From NCBI GenBank assembly GCA_022520065.1, contig GCA_022520065.1_3942.1: DNA of 64,000 bases, one strand, 5' to 3'. Below the pieces are notes generated by a model. The model was given only the letters and a program-made list of their open reading frames with translations, was not told the DNA's origin and made no database searches. Both the position numbers and the translations under genes were made by a program. This DNA comes from a phage. Below, one piece after another: positions 20,092 through 37,218 of the stretch; position 1 is the first letter of the stretch, and the number at the start of each line of letters is the position of its first letter.

Positions 20092-20347
20092 TAGTTATAA
20101 AAGAGAGGGGTTCATACCCTTCTTTGAAGAAAAAAGTTTAAATGAATTTCAGGAAGAGTGTTTGACAAAGGTTGATAGGTTCTATAGAATGCTCTACATG
20201 AAATGTGATGGAGGCGTTGAGGTAGAAGAAAAGTTCCATCACAGTATGATAACAGTCACTATTACTATACCTCGACATAATATTGGTTGGCTGTTTATAA
20301 TTAAAGAAAATGTGTTTGAATATCAAGTATATCGGAGAATATCATGA
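20054..20347 (+). CDS. hypothetical protein
   Basis: 97-aa ORF overlapping helicase end. Confidence 0.3.
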   Translation: MRMQMTARLKLSDSYKREGFIPFFEEKSLNEFQEECLTKVDRFYRMLYMKCDGGVEVEEKFHHSMITVTITIPRHNIGWLFIIKENVFEYQVYRRIS

Positions 20348-20493
20348 AACACTCTAAAGCATTTGAACAAGTTTTTGGGGATTCCTTAAAAGCCACTGCT
20401 GGTAAACCAGCAAAATACTATGAAGAGAAGCGTGTAAGAACTGGAAAAACTGCACGTAAAACAGCTTCTAAAGATAAGCACAACTTCCAGTAA
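20344..20493 (+). CDS. small basic protein (below track cutoff)
   Basis: 49-codon ORF found manually. Confidence 0.3.
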   Translation: MKHSKAFEQVFGDSLKATAGKPAKYYEEKRVRTGKTARKTASKDKHNFQ

Positions 20494-20500
20494 TTAATGT

Positions 20501-20529
20501 TTGACAATAGAGTATCAACAAATTAGAAT
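20501..20529 (+). promoter_or_regulatory. sigma70-like promoter TTGACA-N17-TAGAAT
   Basis: Hexamers at 20501-20506 and 20524-20529. Confidence 0.5.
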
Positions 20530-20565
20530 TGGTACTCTTCATAAATTGAGATAGAGGTTTAAATA

Positions 20566-21423
20566 ATGTCTAAAGTTGTTAAAATGAAAGCTCCGGTAGA
20601 GAAGTACAATGGTACTGAACGTCAAACTCTGCGTTACCTTCTGAAAGATGTTTGGTTTTATTACCTGAACACTTCACCACGTCCGGGAAAAGGTAAATCT
20701 ATTGATAAGAAATTCCCAGGCAAAGATTGTAACTACAGTGTTTCAATTCTGGCAGAAGATGGTAACAAGCTGTTTAAAGAGTTTACTAAGTCTAAGAAAA
20801 ACCCAGAAGGTTGGGATAAAGTTACTACTGAAGCAGTTGATGCAGATGACTTCGAAGAGAAGTTTGGTTGCAAACCACCATTTGAAGCAGACACTTACTA
20901 CATCTTGAAAGTAAGTCGTGCAGCAGCTTATAAAGATGGTGCTGTGTGGACAGCTAAACAGTCATTCCCTGTAATGCTGATTGAAGAAGTAAATGGTAAG
21001 CGTGTAGCTGTTAAACAGCCGATGAAGAAAATCAAAGCTCAAGCATCCGATAAACATGAAGATGACAAGAACTATGATGTAATTCATCCAGATATTGCAG
21101 TTGGTAACGGTTCTTTTGGTAGTGTGATTCTTTCTACTCACTTCTACACTTTTGAGAACAATGTTCTGACAAAACCTATTCAGGAACAGTTTATCATTGA
21201 CACCCTTGTACCTTACACTGGTGGTAACGGTGCTAACGGTGAACCTGAACTGGATGAAGACGAACTGGCTATGCTTGGTCTTGACGGTGTTGAAGATAAC
21301 GGTGAAATCACTGAAGAAGACGCAAAAGACCACAAACCTTCGAACAATTCTGATGATGGTGACGATGAAGACTTGCCAGACCCAGATGACGAAGAAGATG
21401 AAGACTTCGATACAGAAGACTAA
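20566..21423 (+). CDS. putative ssDNA-binding protein with acidic C-terminal tail
   Basis: C-terminus DDEDLPDPDDEEDEDFDTED; replication-module context. Confidence 0.4.
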   Translation: MSKVVKMKAPVEKYNGTERQTLRYLLKDVWFYYLNTSPRPGKGKSIDKKFPGKDCNYSVSILAEDGNKLFKEFTKSKKNPEGWDKVTTEAVDADDFEEKFGCKPPFEADTYYILKVSRAAAYKDGAVWTAKQSFPVMLIEEVNGKRVAVKQPMKKIKAQASDKHEDDKNYDVIHPDIAVGNGSFGSVILSTHFYTFENNVLTKPIQEQFIIDTLVPYTGGNGANGEPELDEDELAMLGLDGVEDNGEITEEDAKDHKPSNNSDDGDDEDLPDPDDEEDEDFDTED

Positions 21424-21442
21424 TCTCTAAAAGTTACTTTAA

Positions 21443-21469
21443 AGCCCTGTACTTAGTATGGGGCTTTTT
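21443..21469 (+). terminator. intrinsic terminator-like hairpin
   Basis: AGCCC-loop-GGGCT followed by TTTT. Confidence 0.4.
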
Positions 21470-21485
21470 CATATGGAGAGTCACA

Positions 21486-22532
21486 ATGGAGAAGTACACA
21501 TTAAAAAAACTTCCCGATTCAGTTACACATGTCTTTATTGACTCTGACAGTATTGCCTATAAAGGTGCTTGTGTAGTTGAGAAAGCAAAATATAAATATG
21601 TCAATAAACTCACAGCAGAAGAATCTGAATCATTTGATAATGCAAAAGATGCTGCAAGATGGTTAGCAGACCAGAGAATCCTTGTAGAAGAGCTTGGCCT
21701 AGCATTTGATGAAGATGAATGGGAAAGACAGACTTGGAAAGAAGCTAAGAGTGAAAAAGAAGCTATCATGGCTACTCAGCAGGTTCTTCAGGAATGGCTT
21801 AAGGTTGTTGGTAAAGAAAGAACTTGGGTAGGTTATTTAACAGAGAAGGGTGTACATAAACATAAAGACATTAAAGGTCTTGAGCACCAATATCAAGGTA
21901 ACCGTAAAGAGGCTGTCACACCAACACACTTAGTTGCTTGTCGTGAATATCTTTTATCCAGACCAGAGTTCAAGCTTTTAAAGGGTGGCTTCGAAGCTGA
22001 TTCAATTGTAATTGCTAAAGCTGAAAAGATGGGTAAGAAAGCTGCTCTTATGAGTATTGACAAAGACCTTCGACAAGCTGAAGGAACTTATTGTATTGAT
22101 ATGACTTATGAAAAATCACCACTAATTTTTATTGCTGATAATAATGTTGGTGATATCTGGGATTGTCCTATCAAATCAAAACCAAAAGCTGCAAAAACAG
22201 TTGGTGTAGGTTTTAAATTCTTGTGTTATCAGGCTGTTGCTGGAGATAATGCAGACAACTACTTCGGCCTAAAAGGTGCTGGTAAAGTAGCTGTGATGAA
22301 TGCTTTAGAGGGTAAAGAGACCTATAAAGAGTGTCTTGATGCTATCTATGAACTCTATGCTAAAAAAGAGTCTTACACCTATGTGTCATGGGATGGACAG
22401 ACTGTTACAAAGACACCGTTAGAGTTAATGGAACAGCATTTCTTCCTAGCTTATCAAGAGCGAAATAAATCAGATATTTTTTCATTTGAAAAGTATGGTT
22501 GGACTCCAAATGTTGACTCAGCAGATACTTAA
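21486..22532 (+). CDS. 5'-3' exonuclease / flap endonuclease (RNase H-like)
   Basis: GFEADSIVIA and AGDNADNYFGLKGAGKVA motifs typical of FEN-family nucleases. Confidence 0.6.
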   Translation: MEKYTLKKLPDSVTHVFIDSDSIAYKGACVVEKAKYKYVNKLTAEESESFDNAKDAARWLADQRILVEELGLAFDEDEWERQTWKEAKSEKEAIMATQQVLQEWLKVVGKERTWVGYLTEKGVHKHKDIKGLEHQYQGNRKEAVTPTHLVACREYLLSRPEFKLLKGGFEADSIVIAKAEKMGKKAALMSIDKDLRQAEGTYCIDMTYEKSPLIFIADNNVGDIWDCPIKSKPKAAKTVGVGFKFLCYQAVAGDNADNYFGLKGAGKVAVMNALEGKETYKECLDAIYELYAKKESYTYVSWDGQTVTKTPLELMEQHFFLAYQERNKSDIFSFEKYGWTPNVDSADT

Positions 22533-23010
22533 AGAATATCTACACTATGACCCCGAAACAGGGGTCTTTACGTGGATAAAGAAATCAGCTAACAGAACAG
22601 TTATAGGTTCCATTGCAGGTACACCACATAAGCGAGGTTATATTAGGATAAAAATTAAAAGAAAACCCTATATGGCTCATGATTTAGCAATCCTGTACAC
22701 AGATGGTTTCCTACCTAACAGAGTAGACCATCGCAACGGCATTACTAATGATAATCGGAGATTAAATCTAAGGGTTTGCACACAAGCTGAAAACTCTTGG
22801 AATAGAAGAACACACTCCAACAACACATCTGGAGTTAAGGGTGTATCTTTCTATAAGGCTAACCAAAAATGGAAGGCCAGAGTTATGACACACGGAGTAT
22901 CTCACTTTCTGGGGTATTTTGACAGTATTGAAGATGCCAAAGATGCAGTCACAAAGAAAAGAGAAGAACTACATAAAGAGTTTTCAAATCACGGAGAAGC
23001 TTATGAATGA
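22495..23010 (+). CDS. HNH homing endonuclease with AP2-like DNA-binding region
   Basis: NUMOD4-like YDPETGVFTW, HNH-like RVDHRNG...N...R, AP2-like GVSHFLGYFDSIEDA; track start 22486 is TTG, ATG at 22495 or 22510. Confidence 0.55.
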   Translation: MVGLQMLTQQILKEYLHYDPETGVFTWIKKSANRTVIGSIAGTPHKRGYIRIKIKRKPYMAHDLAILYTDGFLPNRVDHRNGITNDNRRLNLRVCTQAENSWNRRTHSNNTSGVKGVSFYKANQKWKARVMTHGVSHFLGYFDSIEDAKDAVTKKREELHKEFSNHGEAYE

Positions 23011-23504
23011 AGATTAAAGGATTTGGCAATTGCCCCACCTATGGTCATTGGGTATCTTTATGTGGGGAAGTTGACCCCACTAAACATTTTGGCTTTGTCT
23101 ATTTAGTACACTGTAAGAAGACTGGACAATATTATATAGGAAAGAAACAGCTTAACAGTGTGACCAAAAGAAAAGTTGCTGGGAAGACTCGGAAGAAGGT
23201 AGTCACTAAGGAAAGTGATTGGATGACTTACGAAACCTCTTCTGAGTATATTAAAAAAGATATTGAGAGCTTTGGAAAAGAATTTTTTGACTTTTACATT
23301 ATCCAAACCTACTACACAAAAGGTGGCCTAGTCTATGGTGAAGCAAACCTTCAACATAAATTCGATGTAATGACAAAAAGGATTGACTCGAAGCTCAGAC
23401 TCTTCTACAATGCCAATATTGCAGCAATTAAGTTTATTACTAAAGAAACTTATGAAGATGCTGAAAAAAGAATCCATAAGGTAATGAAAGCAAATTGTGC
23501 TTGA
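23007..23504 (+). CDS. GIY-YIG domain endonuclease-like protein
   Basis: FVYLV ... YYIGKK motif. Confidence 0.5.
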   Translation: MKIKGFGNCPTYGHWVSLCGEVDPTKHFGFVYLVHCKKTGQYYIGKKQLNSVTKRKVAGKTRKKVVTKESDWMTYETSSEYIKKDIESFGKEFFDFYIIQTYYTKGGLVYGEANLQHKFDVMTKRIDSKLRLFYNANIAAIKFITKETYEDAEKRIHKVMKANCA

Positions 23505-23525
23505 TAACTATTGAGAGAGAATAAA

Positions 23526-23756
23526 ATGTTTAACAAAAGCAAAGCTGTGAGTCATGTAGCAAAAGTTGACAGTAAGATTGAAGAACTTGAGCGCATTCTT
23601 GCAAATGCTAGAGAGTCAATAATTAAAGAAGTTGAAGCTGTTGAATCACAAATGCAGCATCTAATACTTAAACGCCAAGAGCTACGTGAGCATCTGGAAT
23701 ATATTGAAACACGAGAGCTAAAGGTTAACAGATTTTTAAGGAGTCCAAATGTTTAA
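23526..23756 (+). CDS. hypothetical coiled-coil protein
   Basis: Track start 23511 is TTG; ATG 23526 has GAGAG RBS. Confidence 0.4.
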   Translation: MFNKSKAVSHVAKVDSKIEELERILANARESIIKEVEAVESQMQHLILKRQELREHLEYIETRELKVNRFLRSPNV

Positions 23757-24504
23757 CTCAAGAGAAGCAGTAAAAAACTGGAATCTTCGTTGTGGAAACA
23801 CTCAAAAGCAACCTTACAGTGATGAGTATTGGGAATCTTTAAAATCCCAGTCTCTGTGTATGCTGGAAGAAGCAAAAGAGCTTGTAAAAGCAATTGAAGA
23901 GAAAGACCCCATTGAGACACTGGATGCTCAGGCAGATTTGCAATATGTTCTTGACGGTTTGATTTACCTGTCACAACATGACCATAACGGTGCTATGAAA
24001 GCTGTTTGCCGTAATAATGACCTGAAGTACACAGATGACTATGAAGAAGCTTTAAAACGTCTTGCAGATATTGAGAAGCGTACTGGTCAAGAGTGTATTA
24101 TCAGAATGTCAGTAGTTGATGGTAAAGAGTGGTATGCCATTGTTCGTGCAGCAGATGGGAAGATTATGAAGCAATCGAATCTCCCTAAAGTACAGCTTGG
24201 TGAATACATTGTAGAACTTGAAAGCCAAGAACTTTTTGTGGTAGTATCTGAGACATGCGTTATCTGCAAAGGTATTGTAGATAGTTTAAAGGATTTGGGT
24301 GTAGATGGTTTTGTAGAAGTTAATCCAATTACCTCTAAAGCAGATAAAGACTTCTGTAAAGAGAATGGACTATGGATTGCAGACATTATCTACTATGATG
24401 GTGAGCAGTTCCATGTAACCTCATACCCGAAACTGAATTATGATGCTAATAACCTGAAGTGCTGGTTAAAAGGGGTTGGTTATAATGGATTCACAGAACA
24501 TTAA
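23749..24504 (+). CDS. protein with MazG-like nucleotide pyrophosphohydrolase-type N-terminal region
   Basis: EExxELVKAIEEKD ... DLQYVLDGLIYLSQ resembles MazG EExxE/D pattern; weak. Confidence 0.35.
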   Translation: MFNSREAVKNWNLRCGNTQKQPYSDEYWESLKSQSLCMLEEAKELVKAIEEKDPIETLDAQADLQYVLDGLIYLSQHDHNGAMKAVCRNNDLKYTDDYEEALKRLADIEKRTGQECIIRMSVVDGKEWYAIVRAADGKIMKQSNLPKVQLGEYIVELESQELFVVVSETCVICKGIVDSLKDLGVDGFVEVNPITSKADKDFCKENGLWIADIIYYDGEQFHVTSYPKLNYDANNLKCWLKGVGYNGFTEH

Positions 24505-24808
24505 TAAAGAGGGTGTGGCTCAGAAGAGCCACTTCTCAAACTACAATATTTCTATGACGGTGTTTATGAATGACCCGTTACTAGAAAAATATGGTGAGAC
24601 TCCAGATACACTTCTGGACAATGAACAAGTTTTAAAAGCAGTCCTGTACAAATACGGGATTGATATTGAGAAAGAATATTCCTTTGAAATCTGCCAACAC
24701 AGGAATACTTTCGGTAAAGTTGTGATGGCTCCACTCTTTATGGGTGTAGAAAGGACTGACTATGGTTGGTTGTATCTAAAAAGAAACTTGGAGAAATACC
24801 GTGTCTAA
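24485..24808 (+). CDS. hypothetical protein
   Basis: Track start 24476 is TTG; ATG at 24485. Confidence 0.4.
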   Translation: MDSQNINKEGVAQKSHFSNYNISMTVFMNDPLLEKYGETPDTLLDNEQVLKAVLYKYGIDIEKEYSFEICQHRNTFGKVVMAPLFMGVERTDYGWLYLKRNLEKYRV

Positions 24809-25139
24809 AGCAAAAAAGCTATCTTATGATGATATTGTCTCAGGTGCTAAGTTAGGCGTTGACAGCCTCGGACAAGATGTTAAGCACGGGGACACAGTTA
24901 TGTACTGTGATGACCGAAGAGGTAGAAGTGCAATCTTGTTTGGAAGAATTGTTTGCAAGATGCGAGGCAATTACGTTGTTGCAGACATGGATGTGAACGT
25001 TACACAAAAACTTGAAACACTTATGGATGATAATACATCATCATGGTTCTCCCTGAATTGTATGCACACTTCTTCAGTCACAAAAGTAAGTGATAAGTTT
25101 TACGATATGTGGCAGAATGAGCAAATTTTCAAGATTTAA
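24801..25139 (+). CDS. hypothetical protein
   Basis: GTG start with GGAGA RBS, no nearby ATG. Confidence 0.4.
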   Translation: MSKAKKLSYDDIVSGAKLGVDSLGQDVKHGDTVMYCDDRRGRSAILFGRIVCKMRGNYVVADMDVNVTQKLETLMDDNTSSWFSLNCMHTSSVTKVSDKFYDMWQNEQIFKI

Positions 25140-25145
25140 ACTAGG

Positions 25146-25167
25146 GAGCCTCTTCGGAGGCTCTTTT
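25146..25167 (+). terminator. intrinsic terminator
   Basis: GAGCCTC-ttcg-GAGGCTC followed by TTTT. Confidence 0.6.
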
Positions 25168-25185
25168 CATCTGTAGGATTCAAAA

Positions 25186-27420
25186 ATGATTAAGACAATT
25201 AAAAAATCAAACGGTACAGTAGTAAGCTTTGACCCAGAAAGACTGAATAAGTGGGCATCATGGGCAGATAAACGTGGAATTATCTGGTCAGAAGTCACTA
25301 TGGAAGCTATGAAACGTGTCTATGAGGGTTGCACTACAAAAGAGATGCACCAAGCCATGATTGATGTTTGTGTTGATAAACAAACTCAAGAGTACTCAGA
25401 TATGGCTGGACGACTGCTTTTGGGTATTATCTACAAAGAAGCCTTTGGAGGCTTTACTAAGGTTCCTACGCTGGTTACCTTCGTTAAAAATATGGAGAGA
25501 GCAGGACTTTGGGAGAAGATGGACTACTCACAGGAAGAGCTTGAATACCTGCAAGGTTACATTGTGCACTCAAAAGATATCTCTTACGGTTATGCAGTCT
25601 TGAAACAGTTCAGAGACAAGTATGGTATCCGTGATATTAAAACGGGAAGACTTTTTGAGTCACCACAATTTATGTTTATGGGTATGGCTATGAAAGCCTT
25701 TGAGAAGCAACCAAAGCACCGTAGATTACAAGATGTTATCAAGCTGTACACTTACCTATCTGACCTGAAGATTAACGCTCCTACACCTTATTTAAACGGT
25801 TTAAGAGCCACCAAGTCAGGTTATGCGTCATGTTGTTTGATTAAGGCGAACGATACTGCTGAGTCTCTAGGTATTGCTGCAAAGGTTGCTTATGACATGA
25901 CTACAAAGCAAGCTGGCATTGGTATGCTGATGGAGACTCGCACTATTGGTGATGGTATCCGTCAAAACACGATTGAGCACATGGGTAAGCTGCCTTATTA
26001 TAAGCTTGTACGTTCATCTGTAGAGGCAAACAAACAGAAGAGTCGTGGTGGTTCAGCTAATAACTTCTACACTGCTCTAGACCCGCAGATTGAAGATTTA
26101 CTGCGTTTGAAGCACCCTACAACGGTTCCTTCTAAACGTATTAACGAGATGGACTACTCATTCGGTACAAATGATTATTTCTGGCAGTGTGTTCAGTATG
26201 ATACAGATTGGTTGCTATTCTCTTACAAAGATGCACCAAAACTCTATGACATGTTCTACACAGCATCTGCTGACGAGTTTGCTATGGCAGTTGGCCATGC
26301 AGTACATTCAGGTGTTAAGCACAGACGGGTAAAGGCTCGTGAAATTGCTAAGCTGTTTATTCAACAGCGTTATGCTACAGGTCGTGTGTATCCATTCTTC
26401 ACTAACAATGCAAACACACATACACCATTTAAAGAACCATTGAAGATGTCAAATCTTTGTATGGAAATTGTATTGCCAGTGTATGGTTTTGAGAAAGAGA
26501 CAGACCTTTACAGAGACGATGCTGTGAAAGAGGATGGTGAGGTGGCTCTTTGCTTCCTAGCTAGTTTGGTTGCAGGGAGAATTTCAGAAGATGAATACGC
26601 TGACGTTGCTTATTATGCTCTTGCAATGGTTGACTCCGTTATTGACCTTATGGATTATCCGTATCCGTCGATGCGTAACCATGTTCAGAAGCGTCGTTCT
26701 GTTGGGATTGGCCTTACAAATGTGGCTCATTACCTTGCGAAGAACTACGTGAACTACTCTTCACGAGCAGGTAAAACGAAGCTTCATGAGCTTGCTGAAA
26801 TGCACTCTTACTATCTGCATGAAGCCTCTCTGAGACTTGCTAAAGAGCGTGGTGTTCCAGAATACATGAAGTTCACTAAGTATCCTGAAGGCTGGGTTCC
26901 TCCAAAGACAGCTAACAAGAAGATTGATGAAAAGCATGATGCAAAACTACGATATGATTGGGATGACTTAGCACAACGTATCAAAGAAAATGGTGGAATC
27001 CGAAACTCTGTATTAGAAGCTTACATGCCTAATGAGAGTTCTTCACTAGCAACTAATACGACAAATGGCTTGTACCCAATTCGTGACTTTATTTTAACTA
27101 AAAAGTCTGCAACTGGTAACGTACTGTTTATTGTTCCAGATTATGAAGAGTTGAAGTATGTATATGAAATTGCTTGGGGTATTGACACCTTTGACCTGAT
27201 TGATTGTTATGCAATTGTTCAAAAGTTCACTGGTCAGGCTATCTCTTCAGACTTCTATGTTGACTATGCAAAGTCTAAGAAGGTATCATTGGCTCAAGCT
27301 CTGAAGTACATGATTTATGCCAACTCGGTAGGTATGAAAACCATGTACTACCTTAACAGTCGCATTGGTGTAGGTAAATCTGCACTGCAAGATGCTTATT
27401 GCGAGGGTTGTGGTGTTTAG
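25186..27420 (+). CDS. nrdA: ribonucleotide reductase class Ia large subunit
   Basis: 744 aa, N-terminal ATP-cone-like region, C-terminal CEGCGV tail. Confidence 0.9.
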   Translation: MIKTIKKSNGTVVSFDPERLNKWASWADKRGIIWSEVTMEAMKRVYEGCTTKEMHQAMIDVCVDKQTQEYSDMAGRLLLGIIYKEAFGGFTKVPTLVTFVKNMERAGLWEKMDYSQEELEYLQGYIVHSKDISYGYAVLKQFRDKYGIRDIKTGRLFESPQFMFMGMAMKAFEKQPKHRRLQDVIKLYTYLSDLKINAPTPYLNGLRATKSGYASCCLIKANDTAESLGIAAKVAYDMTTKQAGIGMLMETRTIGDGIRQNTIEHMGKLPYYKLVRSSVEANKQKSRGGSANNFYTALDPQIEDLLRLKHPTTVPSKRINEMDYSFGTNDYFWQCVQYDTDWLLFSYKDAPKLYDMFYTASADEFAMAVGHAVHSGVKHRRVKAREIAKLFIQQRYATGRVYPFFTNNANTHTPFKEPLKMSNLCMEIVLPVYGFEKETDLYRDDAVKEDGEVALCFLASLVAGRISEDEYADVAYYALAMVDSVIDLMDYPYPSMRNHVQKRRSVGIGLTNVAHYLAKNYVNYSSRAGKTKLHELAEMHSYYLHEASLRLAKERGVPEYMKFTKYPEGWVPPKTANKKIDEKHDAKLRYDWDDLAQRIKENGGIRNSVLEAYMPNESSSLATNTTNGLYPIRDFILTKKSATGNVLFIVPDYEELKYVYEIAWGIDTFDLIDCYAIVQKFTGQAISSDFYVDYAKSKKVSLAQALKYMIYANSVGMKTMYYLNSRIGVGKSALQDAYCEGCGV

Positions 27421-32183: not shown

Positions 32184-32479
32184 GTAAAACAATTCGAAGA
32201 AAAGGTTTAAAGAACGTTCATGGACTTTATGAGTGGAGAAATGAGGTACGTAACAGAGAAAATGCTTCAGATGTCTACTTCCATTCTGATATGATGTCCA
32301 GAAAAGGTGGCTCTTATGACTTTACAAGTCAGCCTTGTAGAGAGATTAAGAAGGCTACTAAACGTCTTACAAGAACACAAATAAGGCAGCTTTCTAAGAC
32401 ATCCTTCTTAGATGAAGACTTTGACATTGACAGTAAGTCTCCGAAGAAAGCTGCTAAGAACACTTATATGTATTGGTGA
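32180..32479 (+). CDS. hypothetical protein
   Basis: 99-aa ORF. Confidence 0.45.
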   Translation: MSKTIRRKGLKNVHGLYEWRNEVRNRENASDVYFHSDMMSRKGGSYDFTSQPCREIKKATKRLTRTQIRQLSKTSFLDEDFDIDSKSPKKAAKNTYMYW

Positions 32480-32488
32480 GGTAACTAG

Positions 32489-32974
32489 ATGAATTACATG
32501 GAGATTCGACCATTTGACACAGCTAATGGTGAAGGGGTTCGTGTAAGCCTCTTCGTAGCTGGTTGTAAGCATCACTGTGAAGGCTGCTTTAATAAGGAAT
32601 CTTGGAAGTTTAATGCTGGTAAAGAGTTCACTTATGCAAACCTTTATGGCATCATTAAGTTAATGGATGATAATGCCATCAGTGGGCTGTCAATACTTGG
32701 TGGAGAACCTCTAGATGATAGAAATATTCAAGAGGTTACCAACATATGCAAACGTATTAAAACCGTTTACCCAGAAAAATCTATCTGGCTCTGGACAGGT
32801 TTTCAGTTACATGAAAAAATTCACCTTGATGTGATGAAATATGTTGACGTGGTGATTGATGGTAAGTATGATTCATCTAAACCAACAGTTAAACCGTATC
32901 GTGGTTCAGATAACCAAAACCTCTGGAGAAAAGAGTACGGATGGCAAGGTGATTGTCAGTGGAGAGCAGAGTGA
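32489..32974 (+). CDS. nrdG: anaerobic RNR activating enzyme (radical SAM)
   Basis: CKHHCEGC (CxxxCxxC) and GGEP motifs. Confidence 0.8.
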   Translation: MNYMEIRPFDTANGEGVRVSLFVAGCKHHCEGCFNKESWKFNAGKEFTYANLYGIIKLMDDNAISGLSILGGEPLDDRNIQEVTNICKRIKTVYPEKSIWLWTGFQLHEKIHLDVMKYVDVVIDGKYDSSKPTVKPYRGSDNQNLWRKEYGWQGDCQWRAE

Positions 32975-33070
32975 TTATTCTGGCAAATGGACTAAGGTAT
33001 AACTCCAATTGGTATCACTGAAGAAGAACTTCATAAGTCCTGTATTAAACTTTAATGAGAGAGACTAAAA

Positions 33071-33337
33071 ATGGGAATTTTAGGTAATATGAAAGTTGGA
33101 TTCTTGAAGGCACTGGAAAAAGCAGCAGCAATTGTTTCTATGACTGGAAAGCAGGTCGGTGTAGATGCTTCAGCGGTTGCACAGGTTCTTGCAAGCCAAA
33201 TTGAACAGCAGCCTTACATCTACGTAGGACGTGGTAAAGGTGGTAAGAAACAAGCCCACCGCCAATCTGGTGCAGCAGCTATTAAACGAGCAGCTAAGAA
33301 AGCTCGTAACCGTAAACGTAACAAGAAGGTTAAATAA
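33071..33337 (+). CDS. small basic protein
   Basis: Lys/Arg-rich C-terminus. Confidence 0.4.
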   Translation: MGILGNMKVGFLKALEKAAAIVSMTGKQVGVDASAVAQVLASQIEQQPYIYVGRGKGGKKQAHRQSGAAAIKRAAKKARNRKRNKKVK

Positions 33338-33339
33338 CC

Positions 33340-33660
33340 ATGAGCAAAGTTTATAACACTCGTAAATTACAGATTTTCGTACTGTGCCAGTTTATGGCTA
33401 AAGAATACAACTTCTACTATTGTGGTACAGGTTTTATTAGCGATGATGATGGCTCATACCTCCCATTCAAAGAGGCTGTAAAACTCTTCAATGAAGAGAA
33501 AAGTTCTAAGAAAGATATTGAAAAGGTTAAGCTAACCTACAGCAAGAAAGATAAGAAGATTATCTGCCTAGATAACTTTGTGAAAGTTACTGGAGAAGCA
33601 AAAGAGTTTATGGATGAGAGTGAGATTTCATTCACAAGCATCTTGAAAGTAGCTCAGTAA
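33340..33660 (+). CDS. hypothetical protein
   Basis: 106-aa ORF. Confidence 0.4.
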   Translation: MSKVYNTRKLQIFVLCQFMAKEYNFYYCGTGFISDDDGSYLPFKEAVKLFNEEKSSKKDIEKVKLTYSKKDKKIICLDNFVKVTGEAKEFMDESEISFTSILKVAQ

Positions 33661-33711
33661 ACAGATACTATAAGGGGACTGTAAAGGTTCCCTTTTTATT
33701 TTGGAGGTAAA

Positions 33712-34227
33712 ATGTATCTGTCAAACCTGAAACGTTCGGTTGCAATGTCAGTTCTAAGACTCAGCTTTGATGAGCGTCAAGAGTTTATAGACTCCCACAA
33801 ATATGACCCTTCAAATTCTAATCACATGGTTCTTTGGAATCGTGATAACTTCCGTGAAAGAGCACTTGTCCGTTATTACCCACACTACACAATAGATAAC
33901 CTGTATGAATGGTGTGTTGTGAAGAACACCATTGCAACACTGAACAATCTTTGCAGGTATACGGGTAAGCAAACATTTACATTAGGTCATCACAAACCTG
34001 TTACAAAAGGTGGTGAACATCACTGTGCAAACTGGTTTATCCAAACTAAAGCTGATAACCAGAAGCAAGGAGATAGCCTCCTAAGTATCCCTAAGATGAC
34101 CTATGAAGAGCAAGAGAAATATATCAAAAATAATATGCCAGATGTGCTTGACAACAACTATACAGATTTGGCAATATCTCTCCTGTTGAAGTTCGAGACA
34201 GTTTATAGGGCAACTTATAATGGCTAA
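33712..34227 (+). CDS. putative HNH endonuclease
   Basis: HHKPVTKGGEHHCANW ... N..KQGD resembles HNH motif; weak. Confidence 0.4.
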   Translation: MYLSNLKRSVAMSVLRLSFDERQEFIDSHKYDPSNSNHMVLWNRDNFRERALVRYYPHYTIDNLYEWCVVKNTIATLNNLCRYTGKQTFTLGHHKPVTKGGEHHCANWFIQTKADNQKQGDSLLSIPKMTYEEQEKYIKNNMPDVLDNNYTDLAISLLLKFETVYRATYNG

Positions 34228-34498
34228 AGAAAAGTGGGAGATTTTACCATTAGTCAGTGAAGGAGGTAATGGTTGTGAAATGTACATGATACGTGGTCAT
34301 GTTCCAGAGCCAATTGCACTTGAGATGGTAAACAACTTTACAGATGGTTCTTACAAAGACTTAGGCGAACCAACTGTCAAGCAACAATGGGTTAAACCTG
34401 TACCAGACAGCACAGGTAACTGTAGTGTACTTTATCACGTTGTAGACCCTGCAAAATGCAAATCTGCAATGGCAGTAACAAACGTAACTTTTGATTGA
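34220..34498 (+). CDS. hypothetical protein
   Basis: 92-aa ORF. Confidence 0.4.
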   Translation: MAKEKWEILPLVSEGGNGCEMYMIRGHVPEPIALEMVNNFTDGSYKDLGEPTVKQQWVKPVPDSTGNCSVLYHVVDPAKCKSAMAVTNVTFD

Positions 34499-35391
34499 GA
34501 GAGAAAACTATGAAAACATCTATCCGTGTTACAGTTCATTCACCAACTAAAGGAACTCATGAAGAAGAGTTTAACATCATCCAATTTCCTTCTGGTGAGA
34601 TTGGTGGACACTTTTCGCCAGAGTTTGTTGATTTCACTGCTTATGCAGCATCATCCATCAACAATGTGATTATGATTGTAAAAGGTTATGATAAGGACAC
34701 TTTGTTTGCTGTGGCACTTGCTAAAGAAGCAATTGATGATTTAATTCCTCATGATTATGCTTTAAAGACTGTCATCTTTTACTACTTACCAAATGCACGT
34801 TATGACCGTCACATGTTTAAAGGCGACGCAGCAGCTTTAAAGGTTTTTGCTAAACAGATTAATGCAATGGGATTTGGCGCAGTCTGTGCAGTTGACCCTC
34901 ACAGCTATGTACCAGATAACCTGTTTAACTGCTTCCAGAGTATTCCTCAAAAGGAAATTGCAGTCCACTATGCAAATGACCCACTGATTGATTACTTAGT
35001 AGCCCCAGATGCAGGTGCTGCTAAGAAGATTGCAGAGACTGCTAAAGAGGTGGATAAACCATACATCACAATGTCTAAAGTGCGTAACCTTAAGACTGGT
35101 GAAATTACTGGTATGCGAATCCTTGATGATGTTGATTTGACAGATAAAACCGTCATGATTCTGGATGACATCTGTGATGGTGGTCGAACCTTCATAGAAG
35201 CAGCTAAGCATCTTCGTGAAGCAGGTGCAAAACGTGTGGAACTCTATGTAACACATGGTATCTTCTCTAAAGATGTTGAAAACCTTCTTGACAATGGCAT
35301 TGACCACATCTACACTACAAACTCTTTAGGGGAAGCTAAAGACCGTGGCTTAACACATTATAGCCAAGTTACTGTAGCAAACCTTGATTAA
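34495..35391 (+). CDS. PRPP synthetase-like pyrophosphokinase (Prs/Adps-like)
   Basis: PRPP-binding-type motif VMILDDICDGGRTF; paired with NAMPT-like gene. Confidence 0.7.
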   Translation: MREKTMKTSIRVTVHSPTKGTHEEEFNIIQFPSGEIGGHFSPEFVDFTAYAASSINNVIMIVKGYDKDTLFAVALAKEAIDDLIPHDYALKTVIFYYLPNARYDRHMFKGDAAALKVFAKQINAMGFGAVCAVDPHSYVPDNLFNCFQSIPQKEIAVHYANDPLIDYLVAPDAGAAKKIAETAKEVDKPYITMSKVRNLKTGEITGMRILDDVDLTDKTVMILDDICDGGRTFIEAAKHLREAGAKRVELYVTHGIFSKDVENLLDNGIDHIYTTNSLGEAKDRGLTHYSQVTVANLD

Positions 35392-35400
35392 AACTTTATA

Positions 35401-35421
35401 GGGGCTTAAAAGCCCCATTTT
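35401..35421 (+). terminator. hairpin with weak T-run
   Basis: GGGGCT-taaa-AGCCCC followed by ATTTT. Confidence 0.35.
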
Positions 35422-35436
35422 GAGAGAGATTAAAAG

Positions 35437-37218
35437 ATGACTAAATCACTTTATGCAGTACCAGCAGGTTTAAATGCAGATGCTTACAAATCTGGTCATG
35501 TTTACCAGTATCCTAGTGCAACAGAATATTTGATGTTCAACCTGACACCACGTAGCGACAAATGGTTTAACAGTCCATTAGCAATTGATGGTGTAGTCGC
35601 TTTTGGTATTCAACGTTTTGTTAAAGATTACTTGATAGACCACTGGAATGCTACGTTCTTTGAACGTGACAAAAAAGAAGCAATTGACGAAATCTTAGAA
35701 GTCATGAATGGTGTTCTGGGCAAAGATGCTATCGGTCGAGAGCATTGGGAAGCACTTCACGACTTAGGTTATCTACCAGTTGAAGTATACGCTGTAGAAG
35801 AAGGCACAGTTGTCCCTATGCGTGTTCCGATGATTGTTTTCCAGAACACTGTTTCAGGTTTCCATTGGGTAGCAGGTTATCTGGAAGATGCTTTCTCTGC
35901 TGAGATTTGGAAGGCTTGTACCATTGCAACTATTGCATTGCACTACAAACGTATCTGTAAGAAGTGGGCTGACCTTACTTGTGACAACGACTTGCATTTG
36001 CCTTATCAGTGCCATGACTTTGCTATGCGTGGTATGTCCGGCTTTACTGATGACGCATTTAACGCTGTAGGCCACTTAACCAGCTTTAAAGGAACTGATA
36101 GCTTCCCTGCTGTGTATACGGCTAAACGAATCTATGGACAGTCCTACCCAATCTCTGATATTGGTAGCTCTGTACCAGCCACTGAGCACTCTGTAATGTG
36201 TGCAAACATTGCTTGGGAAGGTGGTAATGAGTTGATTGAAGAAGAAAGACGCTTTAAAGGTGAGTTACAAACCTTCCGTCGTTTCTTAACAGAAACTTAC
36301 CCAACTGGTATTGCAAGTATTGTTTCAGATACTTATAACTTCTGGAGAACTGTGTCAGAAATCTTACCAGCACTCCGTAAAGAAATTATGGAACGTGACG
36401 GTAAACTGGTAATTCGTCCTGACTCTGGAGACCCTGTACATATTGTCACAGGGTACAAAGCAATCCATTTAGAGTGTGCTAAAAAGTCTTATTACGAACA
36501 CTTAAGCAAGCTTGAAGCCAGCGACACAATGTTGAATGCTGTTCTGAACATGAAGCTTGAAAACATCAATTATGGTATTGCTGGATGGCTACTGTCAGAA
36601 GGCTACGAAATGGTTGTTGACAGAGAAGACTTTGAAGTTGCTGATACAGTGCTGTTGAAAAACGCATATATGGTTGGTTCTGCAAACGTTGTAACACGTC
36701 CTGTAGCAGAGATTGATGGAGCTATTAAGACCTTGTATAACATCTTTGGAGGAACTATCAACTCTAAAGGTTTTAAGGTACTGGATGAACATATCGGCCT
36801 TATCTATGGTGACTCTATCACGTTGGAACGTGCAAACGAAATCCTGAAGCGTCTGTATGAAATGGGGTTTGCAAGCTCTAACGTGGTGTTTGGTGTAGGC
36901 TCTTACACTTACCAGTACATGACTCGTGACACCTTTGCATTTGCTGTCAAAGCAACTCTTGCAAGCATTGGTGGCAAAGAGATTATGCTTGCAAAAGACC
37001 CTAAAACAGATAGTGGTGTTAAGAAATCTGCCTTTGGTGGTGTAGCGCCTATGTGGGATGGTGATAAGTTGAAAGCTGTAGATGGCTACGGATTCCAGAG
37101 TTTTGCAGATGTACTTGACCACCCAGCTTGTGCTTTACGTTTAGTCTTTAGTGACTCTGAGCAGTTTGGTTACACAACTCTTGGTGATATTCGAAATAAT
37201 ATTGACAAGCAGCTTTAA
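35437..37218 (+). CDS. nicotinamide phosphoribosyltransferase-like enzyme (NAMPT/Namat-like)
   Basis: 593 aa; NAMPT-like GTDS motif (HLTSFKGTDSFPAV), family-level match by memory. Confidence 0.7.
   Translation: MTKSLYAVPAGLNADAYKSGHVYQYPSATEYLMFNLTPRSDKWFNSPLAIDGVVAFGIQRFVKDYLIDHWNATFFERDKKEAIDEILEVMNGVLGKDAIGREHWEALHDLGYLPVEVYAVEEGTVVPMRVPMIVFQNTVSGFHWVAGYLEDAFSAEIWKACTIATIALHYKRICKKWADLTCDNDLHLPYQCHDFAMRGMSGFTDDAFNAVGHLTSFKGTDSFPAVYTAKRIYGQSYPISDIGSSVPATEHSVMCANIAWEGGNELIEEERRFKGELQTFRRFLTETYPTGIASIVSDTYNFWRTVSEILPALRKEIMERDGKLVIRPDSGDPVHIVTGYKAIHLECAKKSYYEHLSKLEASDTMLNAVLNMKLENINYGIAGWLLSEGYEMVVDREDFEVADTVLLKNAYMVGSANVVTRPVAEIDGAIKTLYNIFGGTINSKGFKVLDEHIGLIYGDSITLERANEILKRLYEMGFASSNVVFGVGSYTYQYMTRDTFAFAVKATLASIGGKEIMLAKDPKTDSGVKKSAFGGVAPMWDGDKLKAVDGYGFQSFADVLDHPACALRLVFSDSEQFGYTTLGDIRNNIDKQL

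What the first reader, a model, noticed from the sequence alone, without database searches (positions are those of the whole stretch)
22495..23504. Back-to-back HNH and GIY-YIG endonuclease genes between the nuclease and nrdA, plus a third HNH-like gene at 33712
An HNH endonuclease with NUMOD4-like and AP2-like regions and a GIY-YIG protein overlap by ATGA; a further HNH-like gene lies between the nrdG-distal ORFs and the Prs-like gene. The surrounding essential genes (thyA, nrdA, nrdB, nrdD) are read as continuous ORFs, so these appear to be free-standing homing endonucleases rather than intron-encoded ones.
Basis: partly seen in the sequence, partly recalled or inferred. Interest (0 to 1): 0.35.

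Follow-up and report, generated by a model that had tools for sequence, protein, structure and literature searches.

The report
One mobile HNH gene, two conserved nucleases
In this Felix O1-type phage genome only the HNH gene behaves like a mobile "homing" endonuclease; the adjacent GIY-YIG gene and the second HNH-like gene are conserved, fixed-position nuclease genes of the whole phage subfamily, and all three are already in public annotations.

Summary
The window is a Felixounavirus (Felix O1-like) genome, 95-98% identical to many GenBank phages. The three ORFs exist as described. The HNH ORF ends at 23010 and most likely starts at 22510. It matches Pfam HNH_3 and keeps its catalytic residues. 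The GIY-YIG ORF (23007-23504) matches Pfam SegE_GIY-YIG and overlaps the HNH stop by ATGA. ORF 33712-34227 has an HNH fold.

Only the HNH gene looks mobile. It is a ~0.5-kb insertion (22503-23001) placed exactly at the ancestral stop/start overlap between the 5'-3' exonuclease gene and the GIY-YIG gene. It is present in 92 records and absent in 169. It occurs as alleles only 53-58% identical while the flanking genes are 94-95% identical. It always travels with a 55-nt variant of the exonuclease 3' end.

The GIY-YIG gene is in every relative across four genera, at the same position. It consists of the catalytic domain only and has dN/dS of about 0.04. ORF 33712 is likewise conserved and syntenic. 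Neither has the distribution of a homing endonuclease gene.

Felix O1's free-standing HNH genes were published in 2010, and these genes are already annotated in GenBank. The finding is ordinary and of low interest.

The parts
21486..22532 (+). 5'-3' exonuclease gene (flank). Its last ~90 nt belong to, or co-segregate with, the HNH cassette.
   Evidence: PHROG 107 'exonuclease' at 5e-62. Annotated exodeoxyribonuclease in relatives.
22444..22502 (+). Variant of the exonuclease 3' end that is linked to the HNH gene. It is the candidate immune version of the endonuclease target.
   Evidence: There are 17-19 differences in 55 nt against HNH-less relatives, compared with 4-8 in the preceding 144 nt. 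The 75-nt bin 22428-22502 is 0.75-0.77 identical to HNH-less phages but 1.00 identical to HNH+ ekra; all other bins are 0.89-1.00. Diagnostic changes (FWIAYQ->FFLAYQ, NP->NK, WEP->WTP) are shared by three HNH alleles.
22503..23001 (+). Inserted HNH cassette of about 499 bp. It replaces 8 bp (GAGCCGTG) of the ancestral exonuclease/GIY-YIG junction.
   Evidence: Homology to four HNH-less genomes stops at 22502 and resumes at 23001/23002. The intact HNH-less junction is in 169 records and the HNH+ junction in 92.
22510..23010 (+). HNH endonuclease ORF (166 aa from the ATG at 22510; alternative starts at 22495 and 22486 lie outside the cassette).
   Evidence: Pfam HNH_3, PHROG 99 and PADLOC HEase. 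Weak alignment to I-HmuI 1U3E across the DH...N...N motif. D73, H74, N86, N95 and N98 are invariant across alleles of 53-58% identity.
22540..22575 (+). 36-nt block conserved at nucleotide level, with the hairpin GACCCC-GAAACA-GGGGTC. It is shared by HNH paralogs at two loci.
   Evidence: 132 places in 121 records, all at least 94% identical. The paralogs downstream of the DNA polymerase gene are only 44-45% identical as proteins. The fold z-score is -2.3.
23007..23504 (+). Conserved GIY-YIG nuclease gene (165 aa) of SegE type, consisting of the catalytic domain only.
   Evidence: Pfam SegE_GIY-YIG at 9e-28. hhalign gives 98.3% probability to the N-terminal 153 aa of a 361-aa T4-like homing endonuclease. 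Found in 298 records. dN/dS is about 0.04. G29, F30, Y32, Y43, G45, E112 and N135 are invariant.
33712..34227 (+). Conserved HNH-fold protein (171 aa, PHROG 3500).
34220..34498 (+). 92-aa ORF (PHROG 4726) overlapping ORF 33712 by 8 nt. The two are kept, replaced or deleted together.

Best explanation
The finding covers three different things.

(1) Window 22503-23001, together with the linked exonuclease-tail variant at 22444-22502, is a mobile free-standing HNH endonuclease cassette of the HNH_3 / I-HmuI-like type. It sits exactly in the ancestral stop/start overlap (ATGAAGATTAA) between the 5'-3' exonuclease gene and the GIY-YIG gene. It supplies its own version of the last codons of the exonuclease gene, and its 3' end supplies a Shine-Dalgarno sequence for the GIY-YIG gene. 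The inferred mechanism is as follows. During mixed infection the enzyme nicks or cuts the HNH-less allele in or near the exonuclease 3' end. Recombinational repair then copies in the cassette together with the immune flank variant. This is intronless homing with co-conversion, as described for T4 Seg and Mob genes.

(2) The GIY-YIG gene is not currently mobile. It is an ancestral, subfamily-wide nuclease made of the catalytic domain only, and in HNH-less genomes it overlaps the exonuclease stop codon (possible translational coupling). It most likely serves the phage, for example in DNA processing or degradation alongside the exonuclease. That role is inferred, not shown.

(3) ORF 33712 is a conserved HNH-fold nuclease that forms a two-gene module with the overlapping 92-aa ORF upstream of prs and nadV. 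The module is dispensable in a few isolates, and the gene is not a homing endonuclease by distribution.
For: Identity of the window: Felixounavirus, 95-98% identical to many records.

HNH gene.
- The insertion boundaries are the same against four HNH-less genomes from three genera.
- 169 records have the intact HNH-less junction and 92 have the HNH+ junction. Together (261) these roughly match the 259 records that matched the 4.5-kb region.
- The gene is polymorphic in both Felixounavirus and Mooglevirus.
- Window and Mushroom HNH proteins are 53% identical (dN 0.42), while the flanking exonuclease and GIY-YIG proteins are 94-95% identical (dN 0.02-0.04) in the same pair of genomes.
- A sharply bounded flank variant co-segregates with the gene.
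- Catalytic residues are conserved, and dN/dS is 0.06 within one allele type.

GIY-YIG gene.
- It is in 298 records, against 278 for the exonuclease gene searched the same way.
- The exonuclease|GIY-YIG overlap is found in Felixounavirus, Suspvirus, Mooglevirus and Kolesnikvirus.
- Its dN/dS of 0.04 equals that of the exonuclease gene.
- It aligns to only the N-terminal 153 aa of a 361-aa T4-like homing endonuclease.
- Single-domain homologues are widespread in cyanomyophages.

ORF 33712.
- It is in 278 records, 241 of them at 80% coverage or more, and is syntenic in an Erwinia phage.
- The family is very small: 18 representatives among 1.8 billion proteins.
- The H-N-N motif is invariant. The HNH fold is indicated only weakly: Foldseek PDB hits have E>=0.2, and the BFVD hit to the Aeh1 HNH endonuclease has E=3e-3.
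Against: No cleavage or homing experiment exists for any of these genes, so the target site is inferred only from the flank variant.

The Moogle copy of the HNH cassette is about as diverged from the window as the backbone is. There is therefore no sign of recent transfer between genera. Old insertion followed by recombination-mediated loss could give the same pattern.

The AP2-type DNA-binding region is below Pfam's threshold.

For the GIY-YIG protein the conserved Arg of the canonical motif was not identified. The model is poor (pLDDT below 50) across residues 109-147, which include the putative catalytic Glu and Asn. The Foldseek match to I-TevI is not significant (E=0.4).

Record counts include duplicate GenBank/RefSeq entries and resequenced isolates.
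Confidence: 0.72

Rival explanations
1. All three genes are active free-standing homing endonucleases.
For: All three keep nuclease catalytic motifs. The GIY-YIG domain is the same Pfam family as T4 SegE and a T4-like 361-aa homing endonuclease. GenBank annotators call the gene 'GIY-YIG homing endonuclease' and ORF 33712 'putative HNH homing endonuclease' in some records.
Against: The GIY-YIG gene and ORF 33712 are at the same locus in essentially all relatives across genera, so there is no empty site left to home into. Neither has a recognisable DNA-binding module. The GIY-YIG gene's dN/dS matches that of a core enzyme.
Confidence: 0.08
2. The GIY-YIG gene is an anciently fixed homing endonuclease that survives because it still acts selfishly or competitively, for example by cutting the genomes of unrelated co-infecting phages (marker exclusion), rather than being domesticated for a housekeeping role.
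For: It belongs to the SegE family. It lies in a nucleotide-metabolism gene cluster, where homing endonuclease genes typically accumulate (PMC10448857). It is under strong purifying selection.
Against: It has no DNA-binding domain to give site specificity. Its position directly after the exonuclease gene, with overlapping stop and start codons, is conserved. Single-domain homologues are conserved in cyanophages.
Confidence: 0.15
3. The HNH gene is a non-mobile accessory gene that was ancestral at this site and has been lost repeatedly by deletion.
For: The Moogle and window copies differ about as much as their backbones do. No experimental homing data exist.
Against: Loss would have to recreate precisely the same functional exonuclease-stop/GIY-YIG-start overlap in 169 records of three genera, and the more distant Kolesnikvirus has the same HNH-less arrangement. 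Alleles are far more diverged than their flanks. The linked flank variant is typical of co-conversion or target immunity. Paralogs occupy a second polymorphic site next to the DNA polymerase gene, which this window lacks.
Confidence: 0.07

Closest known systems
Free-standing HNH homing endonucleases of phages (T4 MobA-E; the six HNH genes reported in Felix O1, PMC3185647; the I-HmuI / HNH_3 family, PDB 1U3E)
   Same: The HNH_3 catalytic motif. A small ORF placed between conserved DNA-metabolism genes. Presence/absence polymorphism at one exact site. A diverged flank next to the insertion. Free-standing, not in an intron or intein.
   Different: No biochemical or genetic proof of cleavage or homing for this gene. 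I-HmuI itself is intron-encoded and the sequence match to it is weak (E=0.067). The cassette overlaps and re-codes the 3' end of the upstream gene.
T4 Seg-type GIY-YIG homing endonucleases (Pfam SegE_GIY-YIG) and I-TevI/I-TevII
   Same: The same catalytic-domain family. GIY, YIG, Glu and Asn positions are conserved. The location is in a nucleotide-metabolism cluster.
   Different: The protein is 165 aa with no C-terminal DNA-binding region, whereas the related T4-like protein is 361 aa. It is universally present and syntenic rather than sporadic. Its dN/dS is like that of a core gene.
Small single-domain GIY-YIG nucleases such as T4 endonuclease II (DenA); compared from general knowledge only
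   Same: Size and single-domain architecture. A phage gene sitting among nucleotide-metabolism genes. A plausible general DNA-processing role.
   Different: No detectable sequence similarity to any solved GIY-YIG structure. The function is untested.
Domesticated homing-endonuclease-derived nucleases (ICP1 Odn; HK97-type terminase-associated HNH), as discussed in PMC10448857
   Same: A nuclease domain of homing-endonuclease type that is retained as a conserved phage gene.
   Different: Here there is no fused targeting domain and no link to the terminase. Domestication is inferred only from distribution and selection.

Membership tests
Free-standing HNH homing endonuclease (gene 22510-23010) | HNH beta-beta-alpha-metal catalytic motif with the conserved His and Asn residues | tested here: met
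   Pfam HNH_3 at 31.1 bits, above the 24.8 cut-off. D73, H74, N86, N95 and N98 are invariant across alleles. The motif aligns with that of I-HmuI.
Free-standing HNH homing endonuclease (gene 22510-23010) | Sporadic presence/absence at one precise site in otherwise colinear relatives | tested here: met
   92 HNH+ and 169 HNH-less junctions, with identical boundaries.
Free-standing HNH homing endonuclease (gene 22510-23010) | Flanking co-conversion tract or target-site variant linked to the gene | tested here: met
   The tract 22444-22498 is about 33% diverged from HNH-less genomes, against 3-6% divergence just upstream (22300-22443) and <=11% in any other 75-nt bin, and is shared by the HNH+ alleles.
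Free-standing HNH homing endonuclease (gene 22510-23010) | Separate DNA-binding module (AP2, NUMOD or IENR type) | tested here: inconclusive
   AP2 scores 17.6 bits, below the 33.3 cut-off. NUMOD4 was not detected. The C-terminal half matches HNH-endonuclease PHROGs.
Free-standing HNH homing endonuclease (gene 22510-23010) | Site-specific cleavage of the empty allele and super-Mendelian inheritance in crosses | not testable with these tools
   Needs biochemistry and mixed infections.
GIY-YIG homing endonuclease (gene 23007-23504) | GIY-YIG catalytic domain | tested here: met
   Pfam SegE_GIY-YIG at 9e-28. hhalign gives 98.3% probability to a T4-like homing endonuclease. GIY, YIG, E112 and N135 are invariant. 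The conserved Arg was not identified.
GIY-YIG homing endonuclease (gene 23007-23504) | C-terminal DNA-binding domain joined by a linker | tested here: not met
   The whole 165-aa protein aligns to residues 3-153 of a 361-aa relative. Only a single predicted helix follows the domain.
GIY-YIG homing endonuclease (gene 23007-23504) | Sporadic distribution among close relatives | tested here: not met
   Present in 298 records, against 278 with the exonuclease gene. Same position in four genera.
GIY-YIG homing endonuclease (gene 23007-23504) | Site-specific cleavage and homing | not testable with these tools
   No experimental data found.
HNH homing endonuclease (ORF 33712-34227) | HNH catalytic motif and fold | tested here: met
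   H93, G100, G101 and N107 are invariant and N116 nearly so. The model has pLDDT 92.8 with a beta-beta-alpha core. The best structural matches outside its own family are HNH nucleases, though weak: E=0.2-1 in PDB and 3e-3 to the Aeh1 HNH endonuclease in BFVD.
HNH homing endonuclease (ORF 33712-34227) | Sporadic distribution at a site that is empty in relatives | tested here: not met
   241 of 278 records hold the full-length gene. It is syntenic with prs and nadV even in Kolesnikvirus. Only rare deletion or replacement was seen.
HNH homing endonuclease (ORF 33712-34227) | DNA-binding module or site-specific cleavage | not tested
   No Pfam domain was found. Biochemistry is needed.

The most novel reading that the evidence does not exclude
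Two readings are not excluded.

First, the Ounavirinae GIY-YIG protein and the ORF 33712/34220 pair may be homing-endonuclease-derived nucleases recruited to phage functions. Examples would be host-DNA breakdown feeding the adjacent nucleotide-salvage genes, or a role related to host defence or DNA modification; the second is hinted at by the swap for an adenine methyltransferase in one phage.

Second, the 36-nt hairpin-containing block conserved at nucleotide level inside HNH paralogs at two loci may be a functional nucleic-acid element. It could be a regulatory hairpin, or a recombination handle that lets HNH cassettes exchange alleles.
Probability: 0.2. Interest if true: 0.45.

Novelty: already known. 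Interest (0 to 1): 0.18.

Why it matters
It matters little beyond annotation hygiene. Free-standing HNH genes in Felix O1-like phages were described in 2010, and these genes are already labelled in GenBank.

The useful corrections are these:
- Only one of the three genes shows the population signature of a mobile element.
- The 'GIY-YIG homing endonuclease' / 'NAD synthetase' gene is really a conserved single-domain nuclease of unknown role.
- The HNH-less exonuclease 3' end is a concrete candidate target for anyone who wants to test homing in this phage group, which is used in therapy and diagnostics.

Tried and rejected
- **PDB sequence searches.** Single sequences and profiles gave nothing useful for the GIY-YIG protein or ORF 33712. 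The protein A hits come from a short repeated helix motif and were treated as chance.
- **Foldseek on the GIY-YIG model.** I-TevI came out on top, but not significantly. The model is weak over the catalytic Glu and Asn region.
- **Other protein libraries.** NCBIfam and PADLOC added nothing except a weak homing-endonuclease hit for the HNH protein.
- **Regulatory signals and repeats.** No dedicated promoter, terminator or border repeats were found around the cassette.
- **Paralogs.** None of the three genes has a paralog elsewhere in the 64-kb window.
- **Recent transfer between genera.** I looked for it by comparing Moogle with the window. The cassette is not clearly more similar than the backbone, so the idea was dropped.
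- **Intron or intein.** Rejected, because the neighbouring genes are intact and each is a single continuous ORF.
- **thyA.** A simple motif scan did not locate it in the neighbourhood, and I did not pursue it.
Full report
**What the window is.** Megablast of 21000-25500 and of 32400-35500 against 50,697 phage records matched about 259 records. The best are 95-98% identical: Felixounavirus LF82P1, Escherichia phages ekra, garuso and wV8, and Salmonella phages. The window is therefore a Felix O1-like myophage genome (Ounavirinae). In several of these records the genes in question are already annotated 'HNH homing endonuclease', 'GIY-YIG homing endonuclease' (or, wrongly, 'NAD synthetase') and 'putative HNH homing endonuclease' or 'hypothetical protein'. 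The Felix O1 genome paper reported six free-standing HNH endonuclease genes and no introns or inteins (PMC3185647).

**Check of the observation.** The ORFs exist at the stated coordinates, and the HNH stop overlaps the GIY-YIG start as ATGA.
- The first ORF passes Pfam HNH_3 (31.1 bits against a 24.8 cut-off) and matches PHROG 99 at 2e-71. AP2 is sub-threshold and NUMOD4 was not returned. It aligns weakly with I-HmuI across the catalytic DH...N...N segment.
- The second ORF matches Pfam SegE_GIY-YIG at 9e-28.
- ORF 33712 has no Pfam hit. It matches PHROG 3500 (unknown function) over its full length and HNH PHROGs weakly. A profile search of 1.8 billion representative proteins found only 18 relatives. 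Across them H93, G100, G101 and N107 are invariant, and P96 and N116 nearly so. The AlphaFold model (pLDDT 92.8) has a beta-beta-alpha core at residues 89-119. Outside its own family its best structural matches are HNH nucleases. These are Cas9 HNH domains, the Gme HNH nickase and ScoMcrA in the PDB (E=0.2-1) and the Aeh1 'HNH endonuclease' in BFVD (E=3e-3).
- nrdA, nrdB, nrdD and nrdG are intact and cover their Pfam profiles. thyA was not checked.

**The HNH gene is an insertion.** Against HNH-less relatives from three genera (VpaE1_ev78, UAB_Phi87, phiSUSP1, Mordin), homology ends at window 22502 and resumes at 23001/23002. In those genomes, and in the more distant Kolesnikvirus phages phiEa104 and ST-3, the exonuclease gene runs straight into the GIY-YIG gene with an 8-11-nt stop/start overlap. 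That arrangement is therefore ancestral. The cassette of about 499 bp replaces 8 bp of it.

The ATG at 22510 lies inside the cassette, whereas 22495 and 22486 lie in exonuclease-homologous sequence. Position 22510 is the start annotated in phage Mushroom and is the likelier one.

**Distribution of the HNH gene.** A 140-nt probe across the empty junction is matched at 80% coverage or more in 169 records. A 151-nt probe across the HNH+ left junction is matched in 92 records. The sum, 261, is close to the 259 records that matched the 4.5-kb region around the locus. Both states occur in Felixounavirus and in Mooglevirus: Moogle and Sf14 have the gene, Mordin and Michonne do not.

**Several HNH alleles occupy the same site.**
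- The window-type allele is full length in only 28 records.
- The Felix O1/Mushroom and EC6 types are 53-58% identical to it as proteins, with catalytic D73, H74, N86, N95 and N98 invariant.
- In the same pair of genomes (window and Mushroom) the flanking exonuclease and GIY-YIG proteins are 94-95% identical (dN 0.02-0.04, against 0.42 for the HNH gene). The alleles therefore did not diverge in place.

**A linked flank variant.** Identity between the window and HNH-less phages is 0.89-1.00 in every 75-nt bin of the left flank except the last. The last bin (22428-22502) falls to 0.75-0.77, yet is 1.00 against HNH+ ekra. The right flank is 0.93-1.00 throughout. The differences are concentrated in 22444-22498, and their diagnostic codons are shared by three HNH alleles.

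This is the pattern expected for a free-standing homing endonuclease whose target lies in the neighbouring conserved gene and whose host allele is immune. The cutting itself is inferred, not shown. I found no border repeats and no dedicated promoter. The Moogle cassette is no closer to the window than the backbone is.

**The GIY-YIG gene is not sporadic.** blastn finds it in 298 records (270 at 80% coverage or more), including the Erwinia and Hafnia phages. The exonuclease gene searched the same way gives 278. Its position directly after the exonuclease gene is conserved in all four genera examined.
- dN/dS is about 0.04, the same as for the exonuclease gene.
- GIY (G29, F30, Y32), YIG (Y43, G45), E112 and N135 are invariant down to 47% identity. 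The canonical Arg was not identified.
- Profile comparison aligns the whole 165-aa protein with residues 3-153 of a 361-aa T4-like 'TevII-like homing endonuclease' that lies next to nrdD (98.3% probability). The Ounavirinae protein therefore lacks the C-terminal DNA-binding half that gives GIY-YIG homing enzymes their specificity.
- Single-domain homologues of 146 aa are common in cyanomyophages; the one examined (ACG-2014f) lies a few genes downstream of its nrdB.
- The structure model is only moderate (pLDDT 70.6, and poor at residues 109-147). I-TevI is the top Foldseek hit but is not significant.

I conclude it is a conserved nuclease, either domesticated or ancestral. A role in DNA processing or degradation with the exonuclease is a guess.

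**ORF 33712 is likewise conserved.** It is in 278 records, 241 of them full length. It is syntenic with the overlapping 92-aa ORF, prs and nadV even in Erwinia phage Panisse. Exceptions are rare. In Salmonella phage SP2 SHa-2019, window 33826-34393 is replaced by 858 nt encoding a (frameshifted) N6-adenine methyltransferase. In NBEco004, window 33753-34463 is deleted. The two-gene module is therefore dispensable in culture, but it is not distributed like a homing endonuclease gene.

**Verdict.** The thing is already known and annotated, so interest is low.

A recent survey warns that conserved nuclease genes of homing-endonuclease type often cannot be called mobile from sequence alone (PMC10448857). 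This locus is a clear example.

The one unexplained item is a 36-nt block (22540-22575) with a perfect 6-bp hairpin. It is at least 94% identical in 132 places, inside HNH paralogs at two different loci whose proteins are only 44-45% identical. Protein constraint alone does not explain that.

Noticed in passing
window 22540-22575: The 36-nt block CTACACTATGACCCCGAAACAGGGGTCTTTACGTGG encodes LHYDPETGVFTW and contains the hairpin GACCCC/GGGGTC. It is at least 94% identical in 132 places in 121 Ounavirinae records, including HNH paralogs downstream of the DNA polymerase gene whose proteins are only 44-45% identical. Synonymous sites are conserved, which suggests nucleotide-level constraint or gene conversion.
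   Followed up: partly
window 33826-34393; L010 2115-2972: In Salmonella phage SP2 SHa-2019, most of ORF 33712 and the first part of the 92-aa ORF are replaced by an N6-adenine DNA methyltransferase that is split into two CDS. In phage NBEco004 (L011), window 33753-34463 is simply deleted.
   Followed up: partly
window 23007-23504: The label 'NAD synthetase', carried by PHROG 447 and many GenBank and RefSeq records for this gene, is a misnomer. The protein is a SegE-type GIY-YIG nuclease domain. The same mislabel is attached to the cyanophage homologues.
   Followed up: yes
L005 1292-1793 (phage EC6): The GIY-YIG gene is annotated as two CDS in EC6. This is either a frameshift or a sequencing error in an otherwise universally intact gene.
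   Followed up: no
L016 665-1198 and L017 671-1198 (REP6, phiSUSP1): A second polymorphic HNH insertion site lies just downstream of the DNA polymerase gene in relatives. This window has no such paralog (tblastn).
   Followed up: partly
window 33757-33816 (ORF 33712 residues 16-35): The N-terminal helix motif LSFDERQEFIDSHKYDPSNS resembles the repeated [20 protein letters not shown] of staphylococcal protein A domains. The phmmer and hmmsearch E-values are inflated by the repeats, and the match is probably chance.
   Followed up: no
window 20162-20530: Three strong sigma-70-like promoter matches (11 of 12 positions each) cluster upstream of the 20566 gene. They may drive the operon running from the 20566 gene through the exonuclease, HNH, GIY-YIG and MazG-like genes.
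   Followed up: no
window 32972-33217 and relatives (e.g. PQ064465 vB_CECAV_041, MW423797 Seyj1-1): The stretch just after nrdG is variable. Some relatives carry insertions of 0.15-1.9 kb between nrdG and prs (matches in several pieces). L010 and L011 do not align with window 32973-33216.
   Followed up: no
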